A stretch of DNA of 55,742 bases, counting the filler, from Sphacelaria rigidula (lineage: Eukaryota), in the NCBI GenBank assembly GCA_964200075.2. It is 6 parts of 6 records of this genome, joined end to end, with 100 filler letters (N's around TTAATTAATTAA, not from the genome) between each part and the next. Parts side by side here need not be neighbours in the genome. Positions count along the whole stretch, not along the records: positions 46,538 to 55,742 come from CAXNAA020009046.1; 5 more parts are not named here. One strand, written 5' to 3'. Every line of letters starts with the position of its first letter. The stretch's first letter is position 1. The position numbers were made by a program, and so were the translations under genes. The notes under the pieces were generated by a model, which saw only the letters and a program-made list of their open reading frames with translations, ran no database searches and was not told where the DNA came from. Below, piece by piece: positions 5,972-55,742 of this stretch.

Positions 5972-5977
5972 GACGTC

Positions 5978-7894: not shown

Positions 7895-7933
<39 letters not shown>

Positions 7934-9209: not shown

Positions 9210-9309
9210 NNNNNNNNNNNNNNNNNNNNNNNNNNNNNNNNNNNNNNNNNNNNTTAATTAATTAANNNNNNNNNNNNNNNNNNNNNNNNNNNNNNNNNNN
9301 NNNNNNNNN
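9210..9309. other. Artificial scaffold linker (also 18519-18618, 27827-27926, 37133-37232, 46438-46537)
   Basis: Each linker is exactly 100 bp: N44-TTAATTAATTAA-N44, which puts stop codons in all six frames. Confidence 0.98.
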
Positions 9310-17012: not shown

Positions 17013-17938
17013 GTCGCCCCGGTGGCTCAATTGATACCCTGGAAACCCTCTGACGGGTGGGACGTGGATTCCAACCTCGGTGAAGTCACACGATGTAGAA
17101 TTTTATCTCATATTCGTTATGCCCAAGAGTTGAAATCGACCATGTCGTGGAAACACAAAGTTCGACTTCACGATCGACGAGGGAAGGGGACCGCCGAACC
17201 CTTCTCGCGATGAAAAGGGAGGCAAGGACCGCAGAAGGAAATGAGTAAACTGCTACTCGTACAATAAAACAAGACAGAAGATGAAAAGGTCCCGTGGTGA
17301 CCTTCCTCCTGTACTCGTATGGTCCCGACTGATGCACCAGCATATATATGTGCGTGTTGTGTGTGTGTGTTGTCGTCCCATCTATTCTGGACGCCGGTCT
17401 ACACCTTTCGGTATGAGCAATGCTACGGTAGGGGTGCACTTTTTTCGCGATATTATGTCTAGTTCAGGGTCTCCAAACGATTCAAGATGCACAAAAATAT
17501 GGGTCAGGACATCCCCATGTGCAAATTCATTCGGGATATCCTCCTCAGCACATTGGAGTAGTAGTCCTGGCGTACTTTCACATATTTTCATGAGTCGCAT
17601 TTTGCTTGAGATGAAGGGCTTCTAACAATTATAACCTCAGAAAATATTTGTGCACCCCTACCATAGCATCACTCACTCGTATAAGTGGGCGCATCAGCCG
17701 GGGTCACACAGGAGAAAGGTCAACACAGGAGCTTTTTCTTTTTTATTTGTGTTTAGTACCCCNNNNNNNNNNTTTATCGCGAGAGGGGCCCAGCAGTCCC
17801 TTTCCCTCGTCAACCGTGAAGTCGAATTTTGTGTACCCACGACATAGTCGCTCTCCACTGTTGGGCATGAAAAAAAATCCCAGATCACTCCAGGAATAAT
17901 TGAACCCACGACCCATCCGTCGGAGCCACTGGGGCGAC
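17013..17938. mobile_element. Two SINE family 1 copies, tail to tail (17013-17348 plus; 17350-17938 minus, interrupted by a MITE)
   Basis: Both start GTCGCCCC(G/A)GTGGCTC and share the body motifs ATGTCGTGG, TTCGACTTCACG, GAGGGAA and TGACCTT.CTCCTGT. Confidence 0.75.
17414..17679. mobile_element. About 265-bp MITE, copy 2, inserted at a TA inside a SINE
   Basis: TIRs ATGCTACGGTAGGGGTGCAC / GTGCACCCCTACCATAGCAT, with TA on both flanks (17412-17413, 17680-17681). It interrupts the minus-strand SINE copy. Confidence 0.75.
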
Positions 17939-18927
17939 CGTTATACAGACTATACAGATAGCGACAGATGTTAAGAAACTCTTATTTGGAGCGAGGCTCG
18001 GGTTCTTATTTCCTCTCCGATTGTTGCAGAAATGCTTAATTAAATCCAAATTCTGATCATTCGAAGAGGTGCAAAACGCCAAATGCTTAATTTTTAATTT
18101 CTAATTTTTGTACAGGCATCCAATACGGCATTTGTTTTCCCTGAGCGCTTGTCAAGAATCATGTTTGACACATTGCATCCATCATGCATACTGTGTTTCA
18201 CCAGATTTTCATTATATGACGAAGCTCTCTAGGACAGCAGGGGTGAAAGTTCATGTTGCCCACCTCCGACGACTACAAAACTGGTGAAGCACTGTTGTAC
18301 TACTACTGTAGCCAGAAGAGCCACTCAATCGACATGGTCTATATTACGCACGTTCGGCATTAATACCCTCCCCCTGCTACTGACTGCCGGTTTTTTCGGG
18401 CCTGTTTCTGGATCTCCGCGCTGGCTGTTCTACCCGCCCCTTCCGACCGTTGAGAGAGGGGATAGGAATGAAAAAATTGTTGCATGGTCCAATGGACGCT
18501 GCGAAAAATATGAAATTGNNNNNNNNNNNNNNNNNNNNNNNNNNNNNNNNNNNNNNNNNNNNTTAATTAATTAANNNNNNNNNNNNNNNNNNNNNNNNNN
18601 NNNNNNNNNNNNNNNNNNAAATGTATAAAAGAGCATGGGCCTGCAAACTTCAAATCCGCCTCTAGGCTGGCCCAGCTCGTAGCTCCCCCGAGTTCGACGG
18701 GGAGAGAAAGGAGAGAAAAAAAAACGAACTCTGACTGCAAATAAGTGAAGAGGGACACAAAAAGGATCGAAGTGCCCTCGTTTGCAGAGGATACTGAGGG
18801 ACAGGTGCAAGTGGAGTGAAACGATCCCGGTTGGAATCTCACTTCCGTTGGGAGCTGATGAGATCACGGAGGGGATTCTGCTGGGAGCTGACTAACGTAC
18901 GCACGGGTAAGATGCGCCCCACCTCAC

Positions 18928-20443: not shown

Positions 20444-20692
20444 CTATGGTGCCGTCGCCTCCTTGAGGTAGGCGATGAGATCCTTCCGCTCCGCCGGCTT
20501 CTTGAGCCCCGCGAAAACCATCTTGGTACCCTTGATGTACTTCTTCGGAGCCAGCAGGTATTCGAACAGTGTGTCCTCTCCCCACAATACACCCGAATTC
20601 TTGTTAGCGGCGGAGTACGAGTAGCCTTCGCCAGTCCCTGCCGTTCGGCCGAATAGCCCGTTGAGGTTTGGCCCCTGCTTGTGGGGCCCGTT
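20444..20692 (-). CDS. CYC1: Cytochrome c, exon 2
   Basis: After a CAG acceptor (20695-20693) the frame reads [82 protein letters not shown]. It has the GPNL motif and the GTKM axial Met. It joins exon 1 in phase 0 to give 104 aa. The intron is 20693-26393 (5701 bp). Confidence 0.96.
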
Positions 20693-22540
20693 CTGTACAG
20701 TGTGTTCGAAGGTGGGGAGAAGGAATCAAGTGGTCAGTAACTATACAGCGGTGGGTGGGAGACCGGTGGCGAGAATATCGCGTGAAGTACAGTATTTACA
20801 TGCGGGGCAACGTCAGGTTCCTTCAATTCCTGTAGCCTTTATACTGGATGTCTCCGATATGGTACCAACCAATGGTGTCAAACTTGTTTGCATCGCGGAA
20901 ACGCCCGCCAGTACCGTGACTGATGAACCGCCAAGATTGTTCGAGTCGGCATCCATCCGACACGAGGCCGCATGCAATTTCTCGTCTACGCCTCAAGTAC
21001 TGTGAGTGCGGTCGGTCACTTGTGGTCGTGTCACCACCACAATGCTCGACAGGGTCTTAGGTGCCAACTGGAGTACGTCAAGTGCGATCGATAGCCACCA
21101 CCTTCAGCCATACAGTCAAATACTCAACGACATGGAGAATATTGTTTAATGTTGTGTCCCACAAGGGTGTTCCTCTGAAAGAAGGGAATACTCAGTCAAA
21201 TGACGGCGCCGAGTTCGTGTCGGCAAAGGGAAGCTCAGATCTCGAAAAGAGAATGCGTTAGCGCGCGAATCACACTGCACCGCCACCATGAGAATTGTGG
21301 GAGTAGTTGAGCGGCGAATGTTACGCACTGAAAGCACTTTTGCAATAATGCATTTGTTTACAACTGTGGAGAGGACCGTGACAGATCGCCCGTTACACAC
21401 GTGTGAAAAACGTGCCGAGGGCAGTGCTGCCGCCACCAACAGTACACTCCACGATTTGACGGCATCTTGGAGGACCACTATACACTAATGTTGGCGCCGA
21501 TGCGGATTTTCGCAGCTCCCGAAGCGTTGGGTACATTCAGCTGAAAACAGCTGTCTGCAAGTAGATGAGCAGGGGCGGACCTTCATCCCGTCTACTCAAA
21601 ATCCTCACGCGATGACCCATGCGTGCACTGGAGCCATCGTTGCTCATACGCTGAAAAACGTCGCACACGCACAGCGCGGAGACCAAACCGCGACGTGTTC
21701 AGCTACTTCTTTGCAAGTTCAGCACATTCCAACGTGCAAACAGTTTTACCCTCGTGCTTTGCTGCTCCATCATTCGATATACGGCTGAAAACGTGGTGTG
21801 CGTTAAACTGTATTTGTGGGTGGTGAAATTAGCCTATTGGCTTGCGTCGCTATCGAGATTTCCATCACGTTCAGTATTGTCCTGGGTAGGTATCTTGTAC
21901 ATAACTACCCCACTCGAAACATACGCCTCGATGCTGGAAATCGGCGAATGTAACCGCAGGTTCATGAAAAAACCCGCAAGTTTCATCCTATCTATTTTCG
22001 GGTGCAGGGTACGCATCGAGTGGTGTACATCTGATGAGGCAAGCAGTATGTGTTGCTTTCGAGAGCTTTCAACGGGATGCGGCGACCGGCGGGGCGCCCG
22101 CCACTTGTAGCTCTACATGATACTATTGTTCTCATCACCTTGCCACACAGCCCTTTGTGGTCGGGGTGGGCCACCATTTCCCCCTTTTCTACATGCGGCA
22201 ATTTCTCATCGAAGGGTCTATTGCGGCGCGCATGCAAACAACTGTACGCCTCTCCTACTACAAACTCCTTGCAAGTTCTTCGCAATTCTCAGCTACCGAG
22301 ATCAACTGCCTGTATACCGCTTTTTCATCCCCGCACCACATGCATACTGCAAGTCATCTGCAAAGGGACATGCGAATTCATGACGGTAGCTCCTTTCGTC
22401 CTTCAACGTCCGACCTGGGTCTAGTGTCTATTAAAAATGATCACCTTGTAGCATGTATACTGCTTCCCGGCTTTTCCGGTCGACTCTGTGTTTCAACAAT
22501 TACAAGCTGGGCCGACGAAAACGCCAGAATTTAACCAATA

Positions 22541-25800: not shown

Positions 25801-26393
25801 GACAATTACTCCAACTCGAGGAGGCGAGGTGGGGTTTCATCTGGCGCATTTAGACGTGCCTCTTGGAGGGATATCGCGAGCAAAGTCTCATTCGAGGTCA
25901 ATCCCAAGGCTCGACAAAACGCAGTCGCGACTGTAGTCTGTCATTAACCTGACGCATTTTCCGTGTTATTATGCTGCGATATCAGGGCGTGTAATTGTGT
26001 TCGTGATATGCCGACCGTGCGGTCCGTGCTACGGCCTACTGATATAGAACGAAGTAATCCAATATTTTGAGAGCCCTACACCCCTTCCCACGCAAACACA
26101 CCGCATTTCTGCGCTGAGAGAGGGTTTTGGGATACAAGCGGGAGGCATGGTGTGTACTGTTTGCGGTGGCAACGGCACTAGGGAGGTGGAGCAGAATACA
26201 GTGGTCATGGCGCGCACGTGCTACAACAAGTTTGTGTATGGTGTGTGCAAATACATCACAGCAGGACAAAGCAGTTGTCGACACGCCAGGCTGTACGATT
26301 GCGTTGCCAGTCTTTCCCACGAAAAAACAGTGGAGAGAACAGAAGGTCCACGAGCTGATGGCAGCCCCGAGAAATATTTCCTTCGAAACATAC

Positions 26394-26459
26394 CTTCTCG
26401 ACTGTATGGCACTGCGAGCATTTGGTCTTGAAGATCTTAGCTCCCTTATCGGCAGACAT
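26394..26459 (-). CDS. CYC1: Cytochrome c (mitochondrial-type, nuclear encoded), exon 1
   Basis: ATG at 26459 encodes MSADKGAKIFKTKCSQCHTVEK, which contains the CxxCH haem-binding motif (CSQCH). A phase-0 GTATGT donor follows at 26393. Confidence 0.96.
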
Positions 26460-27619
26460 TGTGCAGTGGTTCCTGTGTAGTGTACGGATTCTCTTGGGTA
26501 CTTCGGGCTCGGGGACGTGCAGGTGTGTAGTGAACGCGGTTTGTACGAAGGACCTGGGAGGACCAGCGTCGTTGTTTCCGTTTCAGTTTTGCCACGTCAA
26601 AGACAATACACGAATCTCCGAAGATCTGAGCCGAGGACGTGGTATGCACATTATAGCGAAGGGATACCCACTGTTACGCCGAAAGAAAAAAAACACGATT
26701 CGGAACAGAATCCGACATCTTTTCGCCCCGATACGCACGCACCCACAACGCCACCCTGGATTCAGCAACATGAGGTTGTTGCCCATGGTCTACATGACGT
26801 GCGGGCGAAGTTTCAGCCCGTAAAAGTGCTGACAGTGCGTGCATGGCCGTGCCTCCTGAATTGAGCACCTATAAAGACAAGAGGAAGATTTGTCCCGCAC
26901 AGAATGTCATGATCCAGAATGTGTGCCGCTACATATCGATGTTTGTTCTCACGGCGAAGAGGCTGCGTAGTAGGTCATGACGTGGAAGTGAGCGCACCCA
27001 CGTGTCAGCACATGTATCCAGCAATGTCTCAAGCAGCCCGGGCTGCAGAGACGCCGTTTTCAGGCTGTATGGACGGCATAACGCACAACCCGTGTTCGCT
27101 CTGTGTTCAATCCACACTCCCGTTCACGTGCCGCCGAATAGCGTGAATGCTTATATGCTGTCTGTGTTGTGCTGGACCTCTGTGCCAGGTTTGAAGCCGG
27201 ATGGTGTGGACACGGTGGAGAAATCCACGGACGAAGAAATGCTTCGAAAGTGGAAAATGCAGTACTGAACCGTGGAAAGACTTGTGATACTTCGTATGCG
27301 GTTACGCCGCACATCACCAGTCACAGATGCGGTCAGTTACCGCCGTCCTACTTGCACTCCTTCGGCCACCCGCCACTCATTACAATGGCAACAAGTGCAG
27401 GGTCCGCGAACGCGTCGGGTCTTGGGTGCGATGGCTCACCCTCCGTTAGTTTCTCGTTCTAATGATGTGTACAGCAAGAAGTACTGCGGGCCGTGGTGTC
27501 GCGCAGATGCGAAACTGTACCCCAGTGTGGGTGTGTATGTACGCGAGATATTATGTCGATGCCGTCGCAAAGGTCAGGTTTATCGAACGCCTTTTTTTCG
27601 TGTCCAATTGTTTGAGCCG

Positions 27620-27826: not shown

Positions 27827-28064
27827 NNNNNNNNNNNNNNNNNNNNNNNNNNNNNNNNNNNNNNNNNNNNTTAATTAATTAANNNNNNNNNNNNNNNNNN
27901 NNNNNNNNNNNNNNNNNNNNNNNNNNTAAAAACAAATAAAAAAGAAAAAGCTCTTGTGTTGACCTTCCTCCTGTGTGACCGCGGCTGATGCACCCACATA
28001 CACGGAAAGGTGAAGACTGGTGCCCAGAATAAACGGGACGATAACACACAACAAGACACACAGA

Positions 28065-36031: not shown

Positions 36032-37375
36032 AACTGTCGAAAGTCGTTTTGCCTACTGCCAGAACAAAGAAGACCAAAAACAGTTTTACATCTTCAAAAA
36101 TCAGCTCCAAGTCCAAAACACGTATGCCCCCCCGTAAGCTAAGCCAAAGCCAATCACGACCAACAACCAATACATTTTTCCATCCAAACTATACTACTCC
36201 GGAATACCCCCTCGATCGCGTGGATACTTCTCGAGTGCCGTTGACCTCGATTTTTGGGCCACGACTTCAGCAACAAAAAATATGTCGCATTCGCTCGGTT
36301 CTGTGAACTTACAGAGATGGAGCAAAATCCTCCAATAAGAGGGAAAAAATCACGCGATCGAAAAGTGTACTAGGCCGGGGGGACGGGGGGCGGGAGGGGG
36401 TACGCATTTGTTACTTGCCTTTGTCATTTGACAGTTGACCACGTATCCCTTTCGAGACGAAGAACCTTTCTGAGTGTTGCTGCGGTAGCGGTTGCATTTT
36501 TTCAACGAAAAAGTTTCTCGGGGTGTTGGACGGGTAATTGTGAGAATCGCCTTCATTTTTGCTTGAGAAAGACTGAAAATGAAGACGATTCACGAAAAGG
36601 CCCCCTGCGTGCAAACACCATGTTTCTTGAAGTCCGGTCCTCGGAGATTTGGGTTGCGCAGTAAGCCCCATATACTTGGACTCTTACAAAAAAGAGACCC
36701 CAAAACAAAAATTGCGACCCCTATGGTAGCATCGCTCTTCTTGCTTTTGGACAGACTTCTAGCATTTTGAGCGCTCATGAAGTTCCGTCTATACACGACA
36801 CAAAAACTTGTACATGTCTCATCCCCTTCCTGTTACGCCGTCTGCGGCCACCATGTTTCTCTCAGTATAGCGATTGTCTAATTCCCGATGTACCAAAACG
36901 ATTTTCATGTCACCTTCGTTAATTTCCTACAATTCACCCTCTTACTCATGCGTCTGCATGCCGCAGTCACAAGAGCATTGACCTCGCGTCCCTACAAAGC
37001 CGGGACGCAACATACCGGGTTTTCGCAGTATCAGGCTCGGCGTGGAGGGAGGAGGAGGGCATACTCATTTGTTGCTTGTCTTGGTCGTTTGACCGTTGAC
37101 CACGCATCCCTTTCGAGACGGAGCACCGTTCCNNNNNNNNNNNNNNNNNNNNNNNNNNNNNNNNNNNNNNNNNNNNTTAATTAATTAANNNNNNNNNNNN
37201 NNNNNNNNNNNNNNNNNNNNNNNNNNNNNNNNGACTTCAACCTCATATTATGTTTCAACCCCAAAAATTAGGATCGGCTGTTACTATGATTGTATCTCTG
37301 TTTGTACAGTCAGACGTATGTAGTTCGTCCGTTACTTTATAATTTCCTGCACGCGTGGATGTTATATATCCTCAC

Positions 37376-44897: not shown

Positions 44898-47110
44898 ANN
44901 NNNNNNNNTTGTCCAAAAAAAAAGGTCCCCCCCCCCCCCCCCCCCCCTTTGAAGTTTTTCCCTTTTTCCCACCCGTCAGTGCCTGAAACAACGTAGAGTT
45001 CTCGACAATTCAACATGGTGACAGATACACGCAATGCAGTCGAACACGACACAAATTCAGGGGTCAGGTGGAATGTGGGTGTGGCGTTCCAGTTTGGTCC
45101 CCCTCGGGGTGTGACGCAAACACTTCGGGTATGAGGTGTTTCGGATGGGGTGGGCGGATATGGAAGGAACTTCTTGCTATTGAGACAGCGGTGGTACGTG
45201 TATAATTTTTAAGGCCAGTTGAGTGCTCGAAGGGGAATGTGTCAGACGGTAGCATGGCGTCAGGTCGTCGTGTAGGGTACGATTGCGCAAGACTGTGCTT
45301 GGAAAGTACTCTCTCTGGGGCCAATATTTGTACAATTCTGTAACCTTTTCAGCTACAATCCCCCTAGGTTTTCGAATCCTGTGAAACTGTAGACATAATC
45401 ATGGCGAGAATACAATAGACAAGGCATGCTGAGTAAAAATATAATAATGAGGTACGCTGTACTAAATATACCGAGACAAAGCACAGAAATGACAAGAAAC
45501 ATGCCCTTACACGCATGACTTGTACATTGATGCTCACTGGGCGAGAGTCTAGTTCGTATGCCATATCCTAGCTGAGCCACCATGAGACGACCGGATTGTG
45601 GTGGTAAAGTCTTGCTGCACTTATACGGCACAGGAGTTTGACAGCAAAAGTAGAGCGCGCGTTTGCCTACATCGTGCAGCAATACTGTTGGCTTTCCTAC
45701 TTATTTAGAATATCGGTCAGCAGGGCGCCTAGAATGCTACGCTCCTGGACAAACTGTCCAGGGTACCTGGTGGCTTTAGAAACGAACGTGGTTTTTCGAT
45801 TGTATGGACGTGACGTCTGAGCAATTGCGTCGCAATTGGAGGGGGCTGGTTGTATGCCGGTATTATCGATTAACAGGCTAAGGAATCTGTGAGACCCTGC
45901 AGTAAAGATATATTTGGCGAACTTGGCGAATTTTACTCAACATAAAATCGTGTAGTCGACAAACTTTGTCGAGGAAAGTTGGGTGAGCAACACCTCGGTC
46001 AAGAAGCTTGTATATTTCTTTTCTGATCATGCGGCGTTCTCATGGTGGGAAACCACGTTGTTTTGTGGCAAAGGGTGTGCACGCGAGACAACAACCAGCA
46101 AAACTATGGAATTCGTGCTTCGCCCCCCCCGAGGGGGTTCAGCGACCACATCGGCAGAATGAGTGTCTGAAAACCATATGTAGGGTCTGTAGGAAATGTC
46201 AAAGACACGGTATGTAGTCGCGCCGTCAACTTGCGTGGTAGGCTGGGCATGAAGGGCAAAAAGGCAAAATAGGGACACTACGTACGTCTGCGTACTGAAT
46301 AAGTAATGGCAAGGCAATCCACGGGAAGATGAGTGGCAGCATGATATCGAAAACCAAGTTTGAAGCAACTGAACAATGTATTATTCAACTACGGTACCGC
46401 GAAGGAACAAGGTAGTATCCAACTACGGTACAGGGTGNNNNNNNNNNNNNNNNNNNNNNNNNNNNNNNNNNNNNNNNNNNNTTAATTAATTAANNNNNNN
46501 NNNNNNNNNNNNNNNNNNNNNNNNNNNNNNNNNNNNNAAAAAAACCTACTTCTTAGCTCCCCTCCGCTGCCTGTGGGGGTGGGGTTGTTGCGCCGGCGCT
46601 CCCCCCGGCGGGGGGGGGGGGGGGGGGGGGGGTGCACGTTGTGCGCCTGCAGGACTGCACAACGTCTTGGGAGAGCTTCAAGCACTACTATTTCACCCAT
46701 TAGATCAACGTGTACGGCGAGAAGTAAGAGTGGGCCGAATCAGATGGCCGTACTTTCGTTCAACTGTGTACGCTACTTGAGGTACATGCCGGCTATGGCG
46801 AGGGTGTCGACCTAGAGAACATCGCAGCCATCGAGAATCTGCATTGCATGTTGAACGCGTTTGATGACAGTGCGTCTCTAGCGCGGTGTAACTCACCGTT
46901 CAATAAAAAAATAATACAAAAATAGTACTCGCGATGGTGCTGGCCATCTTATGCTGGTCGCTACCATTTCTGCAAGTGTGACCAACAGATGCAAGCCATG
47001 AACACTAGATATGTCATAGATTATCATCATTGCCAGCAACAGCAGTATTTCCACCCCCACCCCCGCCCCATCACCAACAGCAGTAGAAACAACAATAGCG
47101 ACGGCATCAC

Positions 47111-47259
47111 CTCGTGACAGGGTAGGTGGAAGATGACAACTTCCCTGCCATGTTCTCCGCGCGTGACTGATTGCCTGGAAACGTTGCCCAGATTATCTTG
47201 AACGCGGCCTGTCTTCCCGTGTCGATAACAGCTGCAACCGCGCGGAGGTCTGAGGAACC
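47111..47259 (-). CDS. Exon of the same gene; downstream exons not resolved
   Basis: CAG acceptor, phase 0, open frame GSSDLRAVAAVIDTGRQAAFKIIWATFPGNQSRAENMAGKLSSSTYPVT, then a GTGATG donor. Confidence 0.6.
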
Positions 47260-47552
47260 CTGTAATGGTTTCGGTCCGGGGCGTGGAGCAGTCGATCATC
47301 GAATTCATCATAACGATGTCGATAGCTTGTGTGAAGCATAACCGGTGACTTTCAGTACCGACTTTCGTCAGCTTTCCCAAGGCAAGCTACTACTGTAGAA
47401 GGGCATGGTACTAAATATTCACAAGCTAACAGGTAAGTTTCTTTGTTTCGGCATACGCTAAGTGATTACGAGACACGCACGAAGTAAACACGAGGGAAAA
47501 CTCAAGACGAACACTTGCGTAGTTTCCTTCCGAATCCCACCGTCGAGCGTAC

Positions 47553-47758
47553 CTCGTACCAATTAATGAGGGAAGGGAACTCCTCTTCACCCGTGATGAC
47601 GCTCATGATCCTCCGCCGGTCTACTGCTGATTCTAACCCCAGTTGCAACAGCTTAGCGTCTCCAGCCGCTGCCGCCGCTCCTGATGCGCCACCCGTCCCT
47701 CTCCCCCCGTCTGCGATTGCAGCTGTTCCTCTTCTACCCACCCGCGTCGTGGCGCGAC
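47553..47758 (-). CDS. Exon of the same gene (SAM-like C-terminal helices)
   Basis: CAG acceptor (phase 1) and GTACGC donor (phase 0). ...DAKLLQLGLESAVDRRRIMSVITGEEEFPSLINWYE resembles the SAM pattern LxxLGIxxxGHRxKILxxI. Confidence 0.65.
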
Positions 47759-49126
47759 CTGGTATTGTCGGTGGCGGATTATAACATACAGTAGACCCGC
47801 TCCATGATGGAGATTTCCGTCCTCAAGTTCATTGAGAGGGTGGGAACCATCGCACCCTCCCGTGACAAGGGACGTCTTCAACCTCGAACCTCTTATCAGC
47901 GGACGAACATGATAACCCCAGTAGTGAGCGGCGATCTCACACACAATTGTTCGGGGAAAATCTCGGTCTGTGTGCCAAGCTTAAGGAGATGCTACTGGTA
48001 GACAGACGGCAAGCTCTAGCGCGGGGGTGAGCGTACTCATGCCTTGCATGCCTCAGCGATCGGACCAGAGACTATGTGTCCTCCGCTGGGGCACATATTC
48101 ATGTATCGCCAATTCACAAATCGCGATCGTGAGCACCAAGCAGTTTTTGGGTTAGTCACCCACCAGCTGTGCCACCCCTGCTGCTTGAACTCCAAAGCCA
48201 TGACCGGAACGCAGCGCATCTTTTCGAGGATTGTCACACAAAAATTGAGCGAAACACGAAGAGAACGAAGCCGGGCGGCATCACCAGTACGATCAAAACG
48301 TTCGCATAGGGTGAGGGTCGAGGCAAAGAATTAATGTAGCTGACGCCAGCACTGCAGGATGGGTGCGGAGAGCACCTAGAGCGTCAAGAATATGCAACGG
48401 TAGAGCGGAGAGTCATGATGCGTGGCCAGATGTTAGAGCCCACGCTCTGAATCGATCAGGAGCAGATTGTAAGGGACAAGTTGTTCAATGATTTACATGT
48501 ATTTGCAAGTGAGCAGGAATGTGAAGGGAGTGCTATAGACAAGGATGTTCGAGAATTTAATCACAGTTTCCGTGCTAGAGTTTTCGCATGCAATGGCAGG
48601 AAGGCGGGGACGGGTATGCTTGCTTTCTCGGCCTCTACGGGGTGTTGGAGAAGTCTTCAGCATACGTGTTATTCCAGACTAGCCATAAGTGTAACCAACA
48701 CCAGTTTTACTCCGTAAGCGTAGACGAATTTCGGCTCAAGAAGATGACCCCAACACGAAATCAATCCCTCCGCATCGTGGTAATATAGATCGAGAACGTC
48801 GTAACATAAATCGAAAACGAGTTTCCGCGTTGTGTCACGTCTTCATCAACGGGAGGGCAGGGAATCTTCAATCTCGCCGAAATCTTCTTGCTCTGCAACA
48901 AATACGTCAAAAACGTATATTCTCATACTTATCGATCGACCGATTGTCTCTCCCTACGCGCCATGTCACTGAAAATGATCGTGTTACTCCGCACACGAAC
49001 ACATTCCACAGCCGCCTTACCCGATGGAAGACGGGTCGATCCGGCGACGACCACCACTGTTTCCTCTCCACGTCTCGCGCGCCCCGCCCCCTCCTCCCCT
49101 CCCGCCTCCGCCTGCGACCGTCGTAC

Positions 49127-49244
49127 CTCCTGAACGTGCTGCCGATAATTGGGCCAACACCTTGTGGGCGGCTGCGGCCACTCGATGAGCATCAGCGGGG
49201 ACAACCCCGAGTCTTAAAAGCCACATTTTAATGGTTAGTCCCTC
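49127..49244 (-). CDS. Exon of the same gene (start of SAM-like segment)
   Basis: CAG acceptor, phase 0: EGLTIKMWLLRLGVVPADAHRVAAAAHKVLAQLSAARSG. The GTACGA donor (phase 1) fits the next exon. An alternative GTAAGG donor at 49020 is possible. Confidence 0.6.
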
Positions 49245-50580
49245 CTGATTAACATAACAGTGACGAGCACACGAAATCAGAAACGCAAGTGGGGAAGGGT
49301 GGGAAGGGATACCGATGTTTTGATTCCCTGTAGCCTAGATCTCAACTCCGTCTACATTCGCGAGGCATGTAGGATCTAGGATCAAGGAGGAATCTTGTGC
49401 GTACAACAGCCCTTATGCCACAAGGTGGGGAAGGGGAGTGCAGGCTGTATATCTGGACACCCACTCATCACATCCCCAAGAAGATGAATTCGCGGGTGAA
49501 ATCACGTATAAGGAAGAGTGGTGACTAATATGTTATATCCAGCATCGCGGTCTCCAAGTGCCCAAGAGGAAAAGAGATCAAAATGGCATTGGATATCAAA
49601 GAACGTGCCATGGAGGGGTGGCGTTCTTCTTTTTCGCCACATTTTCAATCCCGTCGAGTCTGTGGTTTCAGGGCATCGGCCCATTTCTCCGCAGGTATAT
49701 ATAGTGAGTAAATGCTGCTTCACAGTAAGTACATCTTGAGTACGCATCGGGGATCAGTACAAATTGTAGGTAACAAATTTCATACACTGGGTAATGACAA
49801 TATGTGATCAATAGTTGCAAAAGACACAGAATGTACTGCGTAAAGTATAGGCTTATTACAACTATTGTCGGCCGACAATAGTTGCATCAAGCCTGTACGT
49901 GTGATGCAGTACATTTTTGTCCATTGCAACTGATTGATTTGATTTGATTGATTGTCGTACTTCAACTGACCTCCCAGGGGTCATAATCCAGCCGTGGTCA
50001 CGTGATAGACGTACCCAAGACAAAAAAAACTGAAACACTGGCTGAAAAAAAAGAAGGAATAGCACCAAAAAAAGAGTTGAACTGAACGACATAGTAATTG
50101 TGATACATTCTATGGTGACCTGACCGTTAAGGGGTTCCTCAATCGAAGCACTTCATCCGCAACCCCTCGTGACTAGTAGTACCACACGCCGATAGGTGCC
50201 GAGATAGTCACGTTCGATGTCTGGAAGCATGTGCCTTCTCAGCACGTGCTTTGGCATGGTGGTTACCACTGTATGCACAGAAGAGTTGAACGTTGTATAT
50301 TCCACCTTCTAGACCCCCCCTTCCCCCCCCTTGTTCACTTTGTAGGCAGCTCACCTCTCTGTATAACCAATCCAAGACTTTAAGACGGCCCTGAAAAGAT
50401 AACCTAAAATGCGTCCATTCCAACATCACCCTTTTCGGCTCGATATGGAGTAGTAGTGGGACTGACGGTACCACTCAAACACCCTGACGCTAGCCTACAC
50501 TATCGATTCTCTCCAGAATACATGTTTGTACCACTGCAAAAAAAGAAGATCGTATGAAGTCCGCATCAGTTTTTGCGTAC

Positions 50581-50746
50581 CTCTTTGTGTCCAACCCAAG
50601 CGTGTGAAGCTGCCTCATTGATGCAGCCGATGCACAAGCCTCGCATGCTTTCGTTGGCCAGCTTCTGGCGGAATGCTCTCCTGCCCTGGAGACCCCCCCA
50701 TGCCGCCTGCACCTTCCTGGCAGCGGCGACCTCATCAAATGTGTAC
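50581..50746 (-). CDS. Exon with IQ calmodulin-binding-like motif
   Basis: CAG acceptor and GTACGC donor (phase 0). YTFDEVAAARKVQAAWGGLQGRRAFRQKLA matches IQxxxRGxxxR except for G at the first R position. Confidence 0.75.
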
Positions 50747-51022
50747 CTGTTTGTTGCGTGAGTCGGTGCGGGTGCATAACAATACACACTTTTAGAAGTA
50801 TAACGTGTCAAGCACTCCGATTTCAGTCGGGTGCAAACGTCCTGAGCCATTGTGCCCCTAAATGACGCTTTCCTGTCACAGCCTGACAGTGTTGCAAGTT
50901 CAGCTTATTCTCGGACGCTGTTTTGCAGGACATTTTTATTAAGGTGGGATCATTCATTTCCGACGGGCGACGAGACTGTGATCATAGAAGTGGAAATGCA
51001 CTCGCAACGCATCGCCATTTGA

Positions 51023-51896
51023 CAATGGATTCTCGAAAACGGGGTTTTTAACGATTTATAGGCAACCGATTAGACTGCCGTACAGTCAGCGCTGACTGTA
51101 CGGTAGTCGAATCGGTTGCCTATAAACCGTCATAAAAGTTAGTCGTGGGGGTCCAATCCCCGTCGCTCTCACTCCGAGGAGGGCGACTCCACTTGCCAGC
51201 GCTGTTCAACTGTTCGCGCTCACGGTATCGGTCTAATGTTGCCACACGTATCCATTCGGAGTTACTCGTCTCCCCCACTCCTTTCCAGAGTGTGTGCACT
51301 GGGGTCCCTAGCAGTTAACTCGGGGATTGGACTCTCCCCCATCACCCTCTTTTTTACCGGAGGTAAGGTTTTCCTCTTTTTCTTCAAAGGAAGTGCGTCC
51401 GATGAGAATCGAGCCAGCGACTAACCATTGTGACGATCTATAAGCAACCGATTAGACTACCGTACAGTCAGCGCTGACTGTACGGTAGTCCAATCGGTTG
51501 CCTATAAATCGTCACACGAAAAAAAAATGAGGCTCAACTATAGAGCCGTGCTTCCCCTGACCTGATTTCATAACAAATAACTTTCATATGGACGACCCCA
51601 TCCCTCCCGACCTGCCTAAAACTATTTCGGGGAATTTCGAGCCTTCCGTTCCCCCCAAAGGGTATGTGCAAAAGCACGATTTGGGGTCCTTCTTTCACCC
51701 CGAAGTCGAGGCAAAAGTGTGCTTTCGCACATACCCTTTGGGGGAACGGAAGGCTAGAAACCCCCGAAATAGTCTGGAGGAGGTCGGGCGGGGTCGTCCG
51801 TATGAAAGCCGTTTGTCATGAATTCAGGCCAGGGAAAGCACGGCTTTTGTGTTTAACCTCATTCTGTTTTCCAACCCCATTTCCGAGAATCCACTG
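51023..51896. mobile_element. Foldback MITE with CA(G/A)TGG termini (Tc1/mariner-like) hosting the 470-bp element
   Basis: 51023-51046 plus 51517 to about 51680 is the reverse complement of about 51715-51896. The right flank is TA and the left flank is GA. Confidence 0.75.
51047..51516. mobile_element. 470-bp element with 88-bp palindromic direct terminal repeats and no TSD
   Basis: Repeats at 51047-51134 and 51429-51516, each self-complementary about AGC|GCT. The empty site is visible in the opposite arm of the host foldback. Confidence 0.75.
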
Positions 51897-52349
51897 TATT
51901 TGAAGAAACCCAATCGCAATCCTTTGAATCCCATTAGAAACATTGGAGTTGACCGCAACATTAAGGTGCCTGTAGTTCAGTTGTAACAAAGCGACAGCCG
52001 AATTAATTGCCACGGCATGCTTACAGCACTACACACCCGGCCAAACGCAGCACCCCTAGAGATACCGTACACCACGAATAAATGTTGTATGGACGGGCTG
52101 TCGTCAGCTGGTGAAGTAATATTTGTTCTGTTCGCAAACGCTTGAATATCAAAAACGACGGGAAAGTAGTTGTACTCCCATCATCTTCATTTGGGGATAT
52201 CATGATACGTAGTTTCTGTTTATAGCCGTACATGACACGGCACTGCATGACGAAATTGCCCTCAACCATCGACATCGTCACCATTGCATAACTGGGGGGA
52301 TAGCTGTCCGCAAACGGCACCCTCGAAAGCAGAAAGTACCAGATAGCTT

Positions 52350-52797
52350 TGGCATAAACAGCAGATGATCGAAATTGAGAACGGAGCTTTTCATTGAGGA
52401 TGAGAACCCGGAGGATCAAAATCTTCGTATCGACACCAAATCTTCGAAATAGGGTTCCATTCCTTCACCTGCTGGTGGCTATCGACAAGTACTACACGTC
52501 ATACATATTTGGATTTCAATAACCGAAATGTTGGGGTCCTGGGTGAAAAAAAAAATTGGGGAATTTCGGCGACCCAATCGGATCACTTAAATCCCCCAAA
52601 ATTGTTTATTTATCTAGGACCCCAACATTTCGGTTATCGAGATCCAAGTTTGCAGGGCGTGTAGCAGTTGTCAATAGTACATGAAGAAATGGAACCATGT
52701 CTCGGAGATTTAGTGTGGATACGAAGATTTTAACCCTTCGGGTTATCATCCTCAGTGAAAAGATCCATCCTCAGTTTCGATGATCGATTGTTCATAG
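52350..52797. mobile_element. Foldback element, near-palindromic over about 450 bp
   Basis: Arms share, for example, ATAACCGAAATGTTGGGGTCCT / AGGACCCCAACATTTCGGTTAT and AAAATCTTCGTATC / GATACGAAGATTTT. Confidence 0.75.
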
Positions 52798-53264
52798 TCG
52801 ATGTCACGATGGGGCACAATGCTGTGAAACGTGGCAACCAGGATAACTTTTCGGTTCTCATTCATGTACAGCCCCGTACTGCACCGGGCTGACGATACTA
52901 TACTCTACAGTGGTAAAGACGGTGTTGCAGAAAATAAAACGGTGGTCAATCCGCTCTGCATTGAGTGTCTGATCCTGGCTAACCTTTTTTCACTGCTGCT
53001 ACGCTGGCATCAACTACTGATCTGACACTGTAGCCTTTGGGTTGACACAGCACTAGCTGATGCAAGGGGATAATTGTGAGTACTGCATATCGATGAAGAG
53101 GAAACTAGACGCCGCACCCGGTTCTTACGGTACAACTGTCACCCATTAGGTTAAAAGCACGTTGGTTCGATTCCTGCTAGATACCTCTCGTTTGGCTTTC
53201 TTCTCTGCAGTCGATGATTGCCGCCGTTGGAACCATGAAGACGTACGTACGGCGGTTTACATTT

Positions 53265-54140
53265 GATTTGGGCGATTTTCCTAGTACTTTTTCGTTGCCG
53301 AGGATACTCGAAAATGTTTTTGCATGCCACTGATCATCCAAGTGAGCATTTGATCCCAAAGTTTGGGGATCGGGAGATGTTAGGCATCCCTCCCCATTCC
53401 GAAATAAGGTCACATCTGCGCTCATTATCGAACGACTTACAGGATGACCGGTTTTCGGGGGTTCTCAGACTGCCCAACCTCAGGTTCTGACCCTTGAGTA
53501 TTTTTGTTCGATTGAAGCAATCCCATTCGTTTTCGCGGAAGAATGAGAATTATTGTTTTTTTATTTACTACTTATTTTTTGCGCTATGGCGAAAAGATTG
53601 TGTTTTTTGCACCAGTGACGGTCGATCGCACTTCTTGATGAACAAAGTACTTACTCCGCATCACCCGGACAACACCAAATGGGGATTGAGTTCTGAAGTG
53701 CTTCTCTTCCCAATACCTATCGACGCTAGGACTTTCAAGTGCCAAGAACGGGTACTACACGGGAAAACTCAAAGAAGTACCCAAAAACGAAAATTGCCCA
53801 ACCGAGCTTTGTATCGCACAGGCGGGGGTGAACCAATGCCGATCACTTTCCTGAATGATTTTACGGATCCATATATTTTCGTCTCGACCTATTCATTGCG
53901 CTAGAGCCGACAAAAAACCGTGTTTTAGACCAAAGACTGCCAATAAACCCCCCGTCAATTCACCTCGGAAGTCGTTCGATATTGAGCGCAGAGACGAATT
54001 TTGTTCCGGAATGTGGAGCGGGTGCCTACTATCTCTTGCCCCCCAAATGTTGGAATCAACCGTCCGCTTGGATGAGCGGTGGCACGCGAAAAAAACATGT
54101 AAAATCGTCGACTACGAAAAAATTGCAAAAATTCCCTATT
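53265..54140. mobile_element. Old foldback element with diverged inverted arms of about 200 bp
   Basis: TCTGCGCTCATTATCGAACGACTT (about 53415) versus AAGTCGTTCGATATTGAGCGCAGA (about 53969), with colinear flanking similarity. Confidence 0.6.
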
Positions 54141-54522
54141 TCAGATGAAAACTGCGTAGGGAAAATGAGCTCGTTTGGCTTAGTTTGCACGACAATCAAC
54201 GCGGTACGGGGGCGCTGATCCAGCCCGCGATACCTAGATGTAAGGCGTGTACCGGGGGAGAGAGAATACTTGATGTCCTGAGAACACCAACGTTTCTCGT
54301 CGAAGGGGAATGGGTAGAACTGAGAAGGAAAAACAGATGGACCAAATGGTTGGTACACCCAGATTGCCAATAAATTTTTATTCACTTGGTAAATCTGCGT
54401 GTTTGGTCTTACACGGTACCTGAAAAGCACTTAAAATTTCATCTCTTTGATATTTCATACCGAGGATAATTTTTGGAAACACTAGCAATGGCGCTTACAG
54501 CTATTTTGGCTCGATCACGTAC

Positions 54523-54700
54523 CTCGGGCGGCATCTCGTGACGGCACCGGTAATGCTGGATCTCCACAGGACTGTCCCAGAAGACATTCGGACTTCAATA
54601 TATCCGAAGCGGGTGACCTGGCGCGTGTAGTCAATTCTGAGTTCTATTTTCGCGCGTGGGCGCGTTTCCTCTTCCATCCTTACCGCGGCTTCGATCATGG
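54523..54700 (-). CDS. Exon of a WW-like/IQ/SAM-like motif protein (WW-like segment)
   Basis: CAG acceptor and GTACGT donor (phase 2). Peptide ...FGYIEVRMSSGTVLWRSSITGAVTRCRP resembles a degenerate WW domain. Joins the 50746 exon in phase (R-Y-T-F). Confidence 0.65.
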
Positions 54701-55191
54701 CTGTCGAGGTTCACGGGATTTTGTACCGGGTGATTTTTTTGGTATAATGCCGTTTCGTTCGCATTTGTTTTGGTTATTGTCTAGACCCAGACACACGGGA
54801 TAAACACGGCAGAGCACATGCGATGCTTCTCAAAACTATGCGAACAACAAGTACAAAGATAGACGTACAATGACGTTTTCCGCACTTGCAAGGCTTATCT
54901 ACTCCGGGAAAACACGAATTGTACTCAGCATCACCGATTAGCGACCTCCGGTAGAATCCACGGTACCCACCGCCACGGCAAGATCGCGCACGATACACCG
55001 CACGCCATCCAGCAGCGCTAACTCAAGAGGGACACTATGATTTGCGACGACAGTCGTAGGTTTACAAATTGCACCCCAAGCCAAACTCCGTGCTCCAATT
55101 AGGCGGGGATTGCAGACCACCGTACGGCGAAGCAGTGACGCTACCCTTTTTTCAACATCTCGCCCGCATAAGACACAGCGCCTACTCAAAC

Positions 55192-55560
55192 TCAGCGGGT
55201 TCTTCCCCTGCCCCCTTCCCAAAACGACGTGGTCCTCAGATATCTCAGCCGCCTGGTCCTCAGGCATCTGAGTCGCAACCTGCTCCCGCGGCCCTGTTTC
55301 GTTTCGCTTTGCTTTTGTACGATTTGATTGCCCGAACCCATGCAGCAAAGACCAGCCAAGCTGCTCTGTTTTGTTTTTCGGGACCGGTGCTACATGCTAC
55401 CCTGGCGGTTTTTCGTTTCCGTTTGCAGAATATATAGTATTTGCTTCCTCTTCCTTCTGCATATTTTCCTGTTCGTCGAGATTTCCCTCGGACACGTTTC
55501 CCCGATTATGCGCCTTGGGTACTTCTACCTCGTGACCATGGTGAATTAGCAGCGGATTGT
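55192..55560 (-). pseudogene. Probable upstream exon of the WW/IQ/SAM-like gene, with an in-frame TAG
   Basis: CAG acceptor at 55563-55561. ORFs 55397..55585 and 54938..55348 share a frame and are separated by a single TAG (55397-55399): ...NEKPPG*HVAPVPKNKTEQLGWSLLHG... Several phase-1 GT donors are possible, so the 3' boundary is uncertain. Confidence 0.45.
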
Positions 55561-55617
55561 CTGTTGTTGGGCTACAACCACACAATCAAACGACCGAAGA
55601 GTCAAGCAATTCAACAA

Positions 55618-55742
55618 ATTTATCTATAGTTTCGGTAATAGTTTTAAGCCCACAGAATTGACGAGACTAACGTTCTAGGCCAATGAGCTGTTACGCTATC
55701 TTTAAAGAATGGCTGCTTCCAAGCCTACCTTCTGGCTGTTTC
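55618..55742 (-). rRNA. rnl: Fragment of large-subunit (23S-like) rRNA, GTPase-associated centre; probable NUMT, cut by the scaffold end
   Basis: Minus strand reads ACAGCCAGAAGGTAGGCTTGGAAGCAGCCATTCTTTAAAGATAGCGTAACAGCTCATTGG...GGGCTTAAAACTATTACCGAAACT. This matches the conserved helix 42-44 region (GGCTTAGAAGCAGCCATC..TTAAAGAAAGCGTAATAGCTCACTGG in bacteria). The AT-rich, divergent form suggests mitochondrial origin. Confidence 0.85.

What the first reader, a model, noticed from the sequence alone, without database searches (positions are those of the whole stretch)
51047..51516. Small element with self-complementary 88-bp direct terminal repeats, inserted without target-site duplication
Seen: two 88-bp copies (51047-51134, 51429-51516) are each a loopless palindrome. 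The right copy pairs at 41 of 44 positions and runs TGTGACG...CGTCACA. Both copies carry an arm mismatch at the same position (left GATTAGACT, right AGTC[G/C]AATC), which orients them as direct repeats. The 294-bp core has its own inverted ends (GTTAGTCG / CGACTAAC) and an inner inverted pair (GTCCAATCCCCG / CGGGGATTGGAC). On the minus strand, TGGTTAGTCGCTGG starts 1 nt after the repeat, like a primer-binding site. The element sits in one arm of a foldback MITE, and the other arm gives the empty site: GGGGTT|GGAAAACAGAATGAGG versus GGGGTT|element|CGAAAAAAAAATGAGG, colinear with no duplicated bases. Known: TRIMs and LTR elements make 4-6 bp TSDs and most DDE MITEs make 2-10 bp TSDs, whereas tyrosine-recombinase elements (DIRS, Ngaro, Crypton) and Helitrons make none. 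Inference: a non-autonomous element mobilised by a tyrosine recombinase or a hairpin-processing (protelomerase-like or HUH) enzyme. It fits no standard category I know.
Basis: partly seen in the sequence, partly recalled or inferred. Interest (0 to 1): 0.78.

Follow-up and report, generated by a model that had tools for sequence, protein, structure and literature searches.

The report
Palindrome-ended mobile repeat in an alga
A 470-base non-coding repeat whose two ends are each an 88-base palindrome sits inside another repeat without the usual duplicated target bases; it is real and belongs to a repeated family in a marine alga, but the enzyme that moves it is still unknown.

Summary
The sequence features are there: two 88-bp loopless palindromes (51047-51134, 51429-51516) flank a 294-bp core. 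Removing exactly these 470 bp restores colinearity between the two arms of a host foldback repeat, so there is no target-site duplication. The host foldback itself keeps a perfect 5-bp duplication.

- The palindromes cannot be oriented as direct repeats. They show 8 direct against 9 inverted mismatches, and the family's majority letter makes the "diagnostic" position pair perfectly.
- The "primer-binding site" is the mirror image of the sequence beside the left palindrome. It is part of a roughly 99-bp inverted end, and its TGG is private to this copy.

Contigs from four public runs show that the palindrome, and its junction with the core, recur in many diverged copies. Most of the core (51127-51360) is a far more abundant MITE-like unit, so the element is a mosaic. 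No other copy could be fetched with its flanks, and no enzyme gene was found.

Best reading: an old copy of a symmetric, non-autonomous DNA element that inserted as one block without a staggered cut. It most resembles hairpin-ended rolling-circle elements (Helitron2/Helentron-HINE) but fails their asymmetry test. Rivals are a composite of palindromic MITEs, break-repair capture, and tyrosine-recombinase or telomere-resolvase action.

The parts
51047..51134 (.). Left 88-bp loopless palindrome (outer arm 51047-51090, inner arm 51091-51134).
   Evidence: I3; 39 of 44 positions pair; -37.7 kcal/mol, z -13.5.
51429..51516 (.). Right 88-bp loopless palindrome (inner arm 51429-51472, outer arm 51473-51516). 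It is the copy closer to the family majority.
   Evidence: I4; 41 of 44 positions pair; -38.3 kcal/mol, z -14.0.
51135..51145 (+). Inner extension of the inverted end, left side. It is the mirror of 51418-51428.
   Evidence: I1: arms 51051-51145 and 51418-51512, 95 nt, 91% complementary; measured from the palindrome centres inward, 48 of 55 positions match in this copy and 52 of 55 with the majority letters.
51418..51428 (-). Inner extension of the inverted end, right side.
   Evidence: The majority letters at 51426 and 51427 are T and T (table 3).
51127..51360 (.). Very abundant MITE-like unit ('X') that makes up most of the core. Its imperfect inverted ends are 51127-51162 and 51321-51360. 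Its left end overlaps the last bases of the left palindrome.
   Evidence: summed contig depth is 22,630-490,483 in run X1, against about 21-36 in the flanks; inverted-end alignment scores 29, against a shuffle mean of 15.9 and a maximum of 25 in 300 shuffles.
51361..51417 (.). Lower-copy right part of the core, lying between unit X and the right inverted end.
   Evidence: depth is 5,622-10,202 in X1 for the bins 51358-51451.
51022..51046 (.). Host foldback repeat: outer part of its left arm, cut off from the rest of the arm by the 470-bp block.
   Evidence: (I8: 25 nt, 88% complementary to 51873-51897).
51517..51897 (.). Host foldback repeat: the rest of the left arm, the turn and the right arm. 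The site equivalent to the insertion point lies between 51872 and 51873.
   Evidence: searches (I2, I5-I7; 76% over 363 nt on the opposite strand), and (summed depth up to 1,320,371 in X1).
51017..51021 (+). ATTTG, the left copy of the host foldback's 5-bp flanking direct repeat.
   Evidence: It abuts the arm that starts at 51022.
51898..51902 (+). ATTTG, the right copy of the host foldback's 5-bp flanking direct repeat.
   Evidence: It abuts the arm that ends at 51897.

Best explanation
WHAT IT IS
- It is an old, slightly decayed copy of a non-coding, symmetric mobile DNA element from a repeat-rich marine alga. A cytochrome c ORF elsewhere in the window points to a stramenopile near the brown algae.
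- Each end is an inverted repeat of about 99 bp: an originally perfect 88-bp palindrome plus 11 bp. These are not LTRs.
- The middle is mostly a relative of a far more abundant MITE-like unit of about 235 bp, whose own end sequence continues into the palindrome arm.

SHOWN
- The 470 bp lie as one block in the arm of an older foldback repeat with no duplicated target bases.
- The palindrome, and the palindrome/core junction, recur in many diverged copies, including in a second labelled organism.

INFERRED
- The block was inserted by a mechanism that makes no staggered target cut. Each end can snap back into a 44-bp hairpin, so I think the likeliest machinery recognises end hairpins on single-stranded DNA. 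That would be an HUH rolling-circle enzyme of the Helitron2/Helentron kind acting in trans.

MY ODDS
- Member of a mobile repeat family that entered as a unit: about 0.7.
- Symmetric inverted ends rather than LTR plus primer-binding site: about 0.9.
- The enzyme is HUH-type: about 0.3.
- The confidence given is for the whole statement.
For: - Anatomy.
- Block insertion without duplication. Removing exactly 470 bp scored best of the 625 deletion end-point pairs tried. The six bases before the site match the other arm at 6 of 6, and the 16 after it at 13 of 16.
- Erosion is an unlikely excuse for the missing duplication. The older host foldback has arms only 76-80% alike yet still carries a perfect 5-bp flanking repeat, ATTTG. 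The four palindrome arms have only 9 substitutions in 176 nt.
  - 7,283, 5,386, 4,809 and 22 contigs of runs X1, X2, X4 and X6 lie on the 1.4-kb stretch.
  - Summed depth over the palindromes is 1,399-28,075 in X1, against 21-36 in the flanks.
  - 25, 38 and 27 contigs carry the majority T at 51109.
  - 13-15, 9-11 and 5-7 contigs carry the majority letters at the core/right-palindrome junction (51426-51427).
  - Listed contigs bridge an arm and the core on both sides: X1 51079-51221, X6 51092-51227, X1 51327-51466 and X2 51327-51475.
  - One 84-nt contig of X6 covers nearly the whole right palindrome.
- Independent contigs reproduce the left flank into the left palindrome with 0-2 differences (X2 50700-51088, X1 50700-51084).
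- Elements with hairpins at both ends and no target modification are known from passages of PMC3627910 and PMC4067079.
Against: - Only this one copy could be seen with its flanks. The 'empty site' is the other arm of the same foldback at 76-80% identity, not a true empty allele.
- No listed contig confirms the junction between the right palindrome and the foldback.
- Depths differ by 10-100 fold between unit X (up to 490,483 in X1) and the palindromes or the right part of the core (1,395-28,075). The element may therefore be a mosaic assembled from separate repeats.
- Several low-copy joints (depth 20-68) put a half palindrome next to other core positions. The half palindrome starts within 4 nt of a palindrome centre, and the joints are 51388->51095, 51158->51093 and 51208->51472. 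Units bounded at the centres also exist.
- The abundant unit X spreads without full palindromes, so the palindromes may not be what the transposition machinery needs.
- Helitron2/HINE asymmetry is absent: those elements have a 3' tail with a separate stem-loop and 8-15 bp terminal repeats. The target is not a clear T|T.
- No Rep/helicase or any other enzyme gene was found. Of 260 distinct ORFs of 75 aa or more in the window, 2 hit Pfam, and both are cytochrome c.
Confidence: 0.35

Rival explanations
1. The block is a composite of separate repeats. The 88-bp palindrome is a MITE made only of terminal inverted repeats, like human Made1. Two copies of it flank an X-type MITE. The block either moved through its outermost ends, like a composite transposon, or arose by successive insertions.
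For: - MITEs made only of inverted repeats, which are near-perfect palindromes, are known. The Made1 abstract (PMC1784062) describes two 37-bp repeats plus 6 bp.
- The palindrome and unit X have very different summed depths, as separate families would.
- Depth over the right palindrome (14,881 at 51491 in X1) exceeds that of its junction with the core (1,395 at 51426-51427).
Against: - Neither palindrome has its own duplication, and neither does the block.
- The inner flanks of the two palindromes are mirror images for 11 bp, and this junction recurs in 5-15 contigs per run. Independent insertions would need a strict target preference.
- Successive insertions exactly at both borders of the core are unlikely.
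Confidence: 0.2
2. The block was not transposed. It is a piece of a tandem array or of extrachromosomal DNA from the X-type repeat, captured during end-joining repair of a break in the foldback arm. The palindromes are junctions between neighbouring units, or products of cruciform or hairpin processing.
For: - Joints suggest head-to-tail X units: 51355 + 33 letters -> 51110, and 51388 + 1 letter -> 51095.
- Head-to-tail copies of a unit bounded at the palindrome centres (51091-51472) would create exactly such palindromes at their junctions.
- End joining leaves no duplication.
- Palindrome centres behave as breakpoints. One joint, 51471 -> 51102, is a palindrome with a 10-bp central deletion.
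Against: - Both borders fall exactly at the outer ends of two complete 88-bp palindromes. This is unexpected for random breakage.
- The tandem joints are low copy (depth 41-57).
- The four arms look equally old.
Confidence: 0.15
3. A tyrosine recombinase or a telomere resolvase acts on the palindromes. For example, the 382-bp unit between the two palindrome centres could be a hairpin-ended cassette exchanged at a palindromic resolution site.
For: - There is no duplication.
- The palindrome was ancestrally perfect and has a 6-bp palindromic centre, AGCGCT.
- Three low-copy joints begin within 4 nt of a centre.
- Cutting a solo palindrome at its centre and fusing both hairpin ends to a hairpin-ended unit would give exactly arm-arm-core-arm-arm (my inference).
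- Endogenous giant viruses of brown algae encode both a tyrosine-recombinase integrase that leaves no duplication and a telomere resolvase that acts on a palindrome (passages of PMC13236599).
- The nearest named relatives of the window's cytochrome c are brown algae.
Against: - No such gene was seen.
- The arm 22-mer and the centre 24-mer have 0 matches in the viral contig collection.
- Centre breakage is a general property of long palindromes, and de Bruijn contigs end at palindrome centres for technical reasons.
- The model still leaves unexplained how the first palindrome reached the foldback arm.
- The viral integrase junctions reported use CC, and no CC is present here.
Confidence: 0.1
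4. It is a TRIM or other LTR retroelement, with 88-bp LTRs and a primer-binding site.
For: The repeats begin with TG and end with CA. A TGG-led string lies one base from the right repeat on the minus strand.
Against: - No 4-6 bp duplication is present.
- Any palindrome that starts TG ends CA.
- The 'PBS' is mirrored at the other end, and its TGG is private to this copy.
- No purine tract lies beside the other repeat.
- No tRNA gene in the window is available for comparison.
Confidence: 0.02
5. The palindromes, or their arrangement, are an assembly artefact.
For: - Long palindromes are a known assembly hazard.
- No listed contig spans the whole stretch or the right outer junction.
- The window is a concatenation of blocks.
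Against: - The palindrome sequence recurs in contigs of four runs from three studies.
- Independent contigs reproduce the left flank into the left palindrome with 0-2 differences.
- The spacers lie far from the element; the nearest ends at 46537.
Confidence: 0.03

Closest known systems
Helitron2 and Helentron/HINE rolling-circle elements (PMC3627910 and PMC4067079, passages read)
   Same: They are non-coding derivatives in high copy number. They have hairpins or palindromic subterminal repeats at both ends, plus an inverted repeat linking the two ends. No target-site modification is seen. The element starts with T, and runs of T lie at the borders (a T5 run spans the left border here).
   Different: - Their repeats are 8-15 bp, not 44+44+11 bp.
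- They are asymmetric: the 3' repeat lies 20-60 bp from the end and is followed by a separate short stem-loop. Here the two ends are mirror images and the right palindrome ends at the insertion border.
- Their target is T|T or T-rich. Here the site is GGGGTT|GGAAAA as judged from the other arm.
- No Rep/helicase partner is known here.
Palindromic MITEs made only of terminal inverted repeats, e.g. human Made1 (PMC1784062, abstract read)
   Same: They are near-perfect palindromes of about 80-90 bp, present in many copies, that fold into stable hairpins.
   Different: - From recall, Made1 is mariner-derived and flanked by TA.
- Here there is no duplication.
- The palindromes come as a pair, with mirror-image inner flanks, around a core.
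Spy DNA transposons (PMC4122938, abstract read)
   Same: They have terminal inverted repeats and insert without a target-site duplication. This shows that a DDE enzyme can also leave none.
   Different: - Spy inserts between AAA and TTT, which is not the site here.
- It has been described from invertebrates.
- Its ends are ordinary inverted repeats, not palindromes.
Parvovirus-type inverted terminal repeats (recalled, not from a call)
   Same: Each end is a terminal palindrome followed by a short non-palindromic inner part that is inverted at the other end. The 'flip/flop' ambiguity between direct and inverted register also applies. Integration leaves no regular duplication.
   Different: - No Rep gene, Rep-binding repeats or nick site were identified.
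- The element is a 470-bp genomic repeat in an alga.
- The palindrome has no internal T-shaped arms beyond a small CGGTT/AACCG pair.
Telomere-resolution sites (telRL) of phage N15 and of brown-algal phaeoviruses (PMC13236599, passages read)
   Same: Both are a long perfect palindrome with a 6-bp palindromic core. The enzymes that act on such sites leave no duplication.
   Different: - Known sites are single and internal to a virus genome, not paired around a 294-bp core in a dispersed repeat.
- No sequence match to viral contigs was found.

Membership tests
TRIM / LTR retroelement | Two terminal repeats in direct orientation. | tested here: inconclusive
   8 mismatches in direct register against 9 in inverted register, over 88 positions. 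The repeats are palindromes, so orientation is undefined.
TRIM / LTR retroelement | A primer-binding site beside one LTR only, and a purine tract beside the other. | tested here: not met
   The string beside the right repeat is mirrored beside the left repeat. The majority letters at 51426-51427 remove its TGG. The matching position on the other side is not purine-rich.
TRIM / LTR retroelement | A 4-6 bp target-site duplication. | tested here: not met
   the best colinearity with the other foldback arm comes from removing exactly the 470 bp. This rests on one copy only.
Helitron2 / Helentron-HINE | A hairpin or palindrome at both ends. | tested here: met
   both ends fold at about -38 kcal/mol, and 0 of 200 shuffles fold as well.
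Helitron2 / Helentron-HINE | Asymmetric ends: short (8-15 bp) terminal repeats, with the 3' one 20-60 bp from the end and followed by a separate stem-loop. | tested here: not met
   The ends are mirror images, 95 nt at 91% (I1). The right palindrome ends at the insertion border.
Helitron2 / Helentron-HINE | No target modification, and insertion within TT or T-rich sequence. | tested here: inconclusive
   No duplication is present. The left flank ends in TT and a T5 run spans the border. However, the right flank starts with CG, and the site in the other arm reads TT|GG.
Helitron2 / Helentron-HINE | An autonomous partner with the same ends that encodes Rep/helicase. | not testable with these tools
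   No genome is held. Pattern scans of three collections found nothing.
Cut-and-paste MITE / foldback element (DDE) | Terminal inverted repeats, small size, no coding capacity, many copies. | tested here: met
   I1; depths and contig counts; no Pfam hit for the ORFs overlapping the element.
Cut-and-paste MITE / foldback element (DDE) | A target-site duplication of fixed length. | tested here: not met
   By contrast, the host foldback has ATTTG on both sides.
Spy (DDE without duplication) | Insertion between AAA and TTT. | tested here: not met
   The flanks are GGGGTT and CGAAAA, and the other arm reads GGGGTT|GGAAAA. The family feature is taken from the abstract of PMC4122938.
Tyrosine-recombinase elements (Crypton, DIRS, Ngaro) | No duplication on insertion. 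| tested here: met
   one copy.
Tyrosine-recombinase elements (Crypton, DIRS, Ngaro) | A recombinase gene in autonomous copies, and the family-specific terminal arrangement. From recall, that is split direct repeats, or inverted repeats plus an internal complementary region. | not testable with these tools
   No related longer copy could be fetched. The terminal arrangement here (a palindrome at each end) is not one I recall for these families.
Telomere-resolvase substrate (telRL-like) | A long perfect palindrome with a short palindromic core at which the DNA is cut and sealed into hairpins. | tested here: inconclusive
   The palindrome was ancestrally perfect, with AGCGCT at its centre. Three low-copy joints begin within 4 nt of a centre. 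Centre breaks are also expected from general palindrome instability, and contigs end at centres for technical reasons.

The most novel reading that the evidence does not exclude
The 88-bp palindromes are telomere-resolution-type sites, and the 382 bp between their centres (51091-51472) is a hairpin-ended linear cassette. A resolvase cuts a chromosomal palindrome at its centre and fuses the two hairpin ends to the cassette's hairpin ends, which recreates a full palindrome on each side. The resolvase could be the one encoded by endogenous giant viruses of brown algae. This would be a new way for a eukaryotic element to move: a small parasite of a viral enzyme that leaves no duplicated target bases.
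Probability: 0.1. Interest if true: 0.85.

Novelty: new variant of a known kind. Interest (0 to 1): 0.45.

Why it matters
Almost all small non-coding DNA transposons in eukaryotes are recognised by terminal inverted repeats plus a fixed duplication. Elements that leave no duplication point to different enzymes: HUH rolling-circle proteins, tyrosine recombinases, or blunt-cutting DDE proteins. They are easily missed or misfiled by annotation pipelines.

Here the ends are long, originally perfect palindromes. That makes the family a clean test case. A census of its copies in the source genome would show quickly whether a hairpin-based mechanism is at work in stramenopile algae, and whether it is tied to their endogenous giant viruses.

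If the element turns out to be a mosaic of ordinary MITEs, the finding is still a useful warning. Self-complementary repeats mimic LTRs, and a "primer-binding site" can be just the inner part of an inverted end.

Tried and rejected
ACCESS AND SEARCHES THAT GAVE NOTHING
- The whole genome is not held.
- No other copy lies in the window. BLAST of each palindrome, the core and the foldback found only themselves (the best other hit was 16 nt, E 0.14). More permissive scoring and motif searches found none either.
- Exact-pattern scans found 0 matches each time:
  - centre 24-mer in metagenome and viral contigs;
  - core 22-mer in metagenome, genome and viral contigs;
  - arm 22-mer in viral and genome contigs.
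- No RNA holder was listed among the sequencing runs.
- The window has no tRNA gene and no Rfam family at gathering score. A permissive Rfam scan of 50900-52000 gave only sub-threshold miRNA-hairpin matches and no tRNA match.
- Pfam hit 2 of 260 distinct ORFs of 75 aa or more, both cytochrome c. None lies near the element.
- The longest frame of the core (51136-51315) has no protein homologue.

READINGS REJECTED
- The core is not a foldback. Its self-complementarity has z 1.5.
- The palindrome arm is not derived from the host foldback or from the 49845-49898 palindrome. The scores fall within the shuffle range.
- The TRIM/PBS reading is rejected (see the membership tests).
- A tRNA origin for the GGTCCAATCC-type motif in the inverted ends was considered but is unsupported.

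LITERATURE
- Six searches gave no description of an element with palindromes at both ends and no duplication in algae.
- I read passages or abstracts of six papers only. I opened no supplements, and these may list repeat families.
- In particular, the supplementary family lists of the Ectocarpus transposon paper (PMC12477816) were not seen. Its main text contains none of 'palindrom', 'hairpin' or 'Crypton'.
Full report
WHAT IS IN THE SEQUENCE

The two 88-bp copies are at the stated coordinates. Each is a palindrome without a loop. The right copy pairs at 41 of 44 positions and the left at 39 of 44. As single strands they fold at -38.3 and -37.7 kcal/mol, and none of 200 shuffles folds as well.

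This is far beyond chance. A hairpin scan of the 55,742-base window found 7 hairpins, and these are two of them. A 19-nt arm motif with up to 3 mismatches matches only the four arms, with no match in 100 shuffles.

The core's inverted ends, its inner 12-nt inverted pair and the minus-strand string beside the right copy are all present.

The window itself is six blocks of about 9.2 kb, separated by 100-bp spacers of 44 N, TTAATTAATTAA and 44 N. The real neighbourhood of the finding is therefore only 46538-55742.

THE REPEATS CANNOT BE ORIENTED, AND THE ENDS ARE INVERTED

Three results go against this.
- The two copies carry different bases at that position.
- In contigs of other copies, the majority letter at 51109 is T, which restores pairing. 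It is carried by 25, 38 and 27 contigs in runs X1, X2 and X4.
- The whole 88-mers differ at 8 positions in direct register and 9 in inverted register.

All four arms differ from their majority by one to three private substitutions, 9 in 176 nt. They descend from one perfect palindrome.

The similarity between the two ends continues beyond the palindromes in inverted orientation. The arms 51051-51145 and 51418-51512 are 95 nt long and 91% complementary. Measured inward from the palindrome centres, 48 of 55 positions agree in this copy, and 52 of 55 once the majority letters are applied.

The "primer-binding site" is this inner part of the right end. Its mirror image lies beside the left palindrome, and the majority letters at 51426-51427 remove its leading TGG. 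No purine tract lies on the other side. The LTR/TRIM reading is therefore rejected.

INSERTION WITHOUT DUPLICATION

The element interrupts the left arm of a foldback repeat (51022-51046 plus 51517-51897). I tried 625 combinations of deletion end points against the other arm. Removing exactly 470 bp (51047-51516, or the same shifted by one base) scored best. The alignment shows 6 of 6 matches before the site and 13 of 16 after it, with no repeated bases.

The host foldback is older, with arms 76-80% alike. It still carries a perfect ATTTG on both sides of its arms (51017-51021 and 51898-51902). Erosion is therefore a poor explanation for the missing duplication at the younger insertion.

Two limits apply.
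- This is one copy, and the "empty site" is a paralogous proxy rather than a true empty allele.
- None of the 32 listed contig pieces covers the junction between the right palindrome and the foldback. Independent contigs do reproduce the left flank into the left palindrome with 0-2 differences.

A REPEATED FAMILY, AND A MOSAIC

No genome is held, and seven pattern scans of three collections found nothing. The only view of other copies is the lay of Logan contigs from four runs. On this 1.4-kb stretch, 7,283, 5,386, 4,809 and 22 contigs were laid.

Summed depth in run X1 varies strongly along the stretch. The tool warns that summed depth is not a copy number, but the contrasts are large.

| Region | Summed depth in X1 |
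|---|---|
| Unique flanks | 21-36 |
| The two palindromes | 1,399-28,075 |
| Right part of the core | 5,622-10,202 |
| 51123-51357 | 22,630-490,483 |
| Host foldback | up to 1,320,371 |

The abundant stretch coincides with a unit, 51127-51360, that has imperfect inverted ends. Their alignment scores 29, against a shuffle maximum of 25 in 300 shuffles. Its left end overlaps the last bases of the palindrome.

The palindrome/core junction is a family feature.
- 13-15, 9-11 and 5-7 contigs carry the majority letters at 51426-51427.
- Listed contigs bridge an arm and the core on both sides.
- One contig from a differently labelled organism (X6) covers almost the whole right palindrome.

Some low-copy joints (depth 20-68) attach a half palindrome, starting within 4 nt of a centre, to other core positions. 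One joint is a palindrome with a 10-bp central deletion. The family is therefore heterogeneous, and the centres behave as breakpoints. Contigs also end at palindrome centres for technical reasons.

WHAT ORGANISM

Of 260 distinct ORFs of 75 aa or more, 2 hit Pfam, and both are cytochrome c. The better one (20447-20725, in another block of the window) has brown algae as its nearest named relatives, at 83-87% identity. The runs holding the stretch are labelled algae, protist or marine. I take the source to be a stramenopile alga near the brown algae.

MECHANISM

What is shown:
- symmetric ends of about 99 bp, each containing an originally perfect palindrome;
- block insertion without duplication;
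- membership of a repeated family.

What is inferred is integration without a staggered cut, by an enzyme supplied in trans.

The closest described architecture is Helitron2 and Helentron/HINE. These have hairpins or palindromic subterminal repeats at both ends and no target modification (passages of PMC3627910 and PMC4067079). However, their short asymmetric repeats, their 3' tail with a separate stem-loop and their T|T target are not met here. I say it may work like them, not that it is one.

The rivals are as follows.
- A composite of palindromic MITEs made only of inverted repeats. Made1 is a precedent (abstract of PMC1784062).
- Capture of a tandem-array or extrachromosomal fragment during break repair.
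- A DDE enzyme that leaves no duplication. Spy shows this is possible, but its AAA|TTT target is not met (abstract of PMC4122938).
This gains some plausibility because endogenous giant viruses of brown algae encode both enzymes, and their resolvase acts on a palindrome (passages of PMC13236599). I found no sequence link to viral contigs.

VERDICT

The LTR-like details do not hold. The enzyme class remains open. The element is best filed as an unusual variant of a non-autonomous DNA element, worth a genome-wide census. Six literature searches turned up no description of such an element in algae. I read only passages and abstracts, and no supplements.

Noticed in passing
window 9210-9309, 18519-18618, 27827-27926, 37133-37232, 46438-46537: Five 100-bp spacers (44 N, TTAATTAATTAA, 44 N) lie at intervals of about 9,307 bases. 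The window is therefore six blocks of about 9.2 kb joined artificially, and neighbours across a spacer are not real neighbours. Two 10-N gaps lie at 17763-17772 and 44899-44908.
   Followed up: partly
window 51017-51902: The host foldback repeat has ends ACAATGG...CCACTGT and a perfect 5-bp flanking direct repeat, ATTTG. It belongs to a family with summed contig depth up to 1.3 million, against about 21-36 in the flanks. From recall, a 5-bp duplication with ends of this kind is reminiscent of Transib-type elements. This was not tested.
   Followed up: partly
window 20447-20725 (-) and 26259-26582 (-): Two cytochrome c-like ORFs lie 5.8 kb apart on the same strand. The first appears uninterrupted over 88-98% of the query length and is 83-87% identical to brown-algal cytochrome c. 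The second is below Pfam's cut-off. They could be a tandem gene pair or a processed copy.
   Followed up: partly
window 326-427, 9343-9414, 49845-49898: Three other long hairpins were found.
- 326-427: 47-nt arms with an 8-nt loop.
- 9343-9414: perfect 30-nt arms with a 12-nt loop, preceded by a similar subrepeat at 9310-9342.
- 49845-49898: a loopless palindrome with 27-nt arms, unrelated in sequence to the 88-bp one.
   Followed up: partly
window 51145-51162, 51321-51338, and the complement of 51395-51417: The inverted-end modules carry a GGTCCAATCC-type motif. With the family's majority T at 51153, it matches the tRNA T-loop / B-box consensus as I recall it. ARAGORN and Rfam give no tRNA match, so a tRNA origin is only a hint.
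   Followed up: partly
window 51090/51091 and 51472/51473: In other loci the palindrome centres behave as breakpoints. Examples are joints 51388->51095, 51158->51093 and 51208->51472, and a palindrome with a 10-bp central deletion (51471->51102). Each has a depth of 20-68, which suggests one to three loci.
   Followed up: no
window 37233-37281: The block after the fourth spacer begins with a weak partial match to the outer end of the foldback family (67-79% over 28-46 nt). This is consistent with the blocks coming from one genome.
   Followed up: no
window 44909-44950: Directly after a 10-N gap there is a run of A followed by a run of about 21 C.
   Followed up: no
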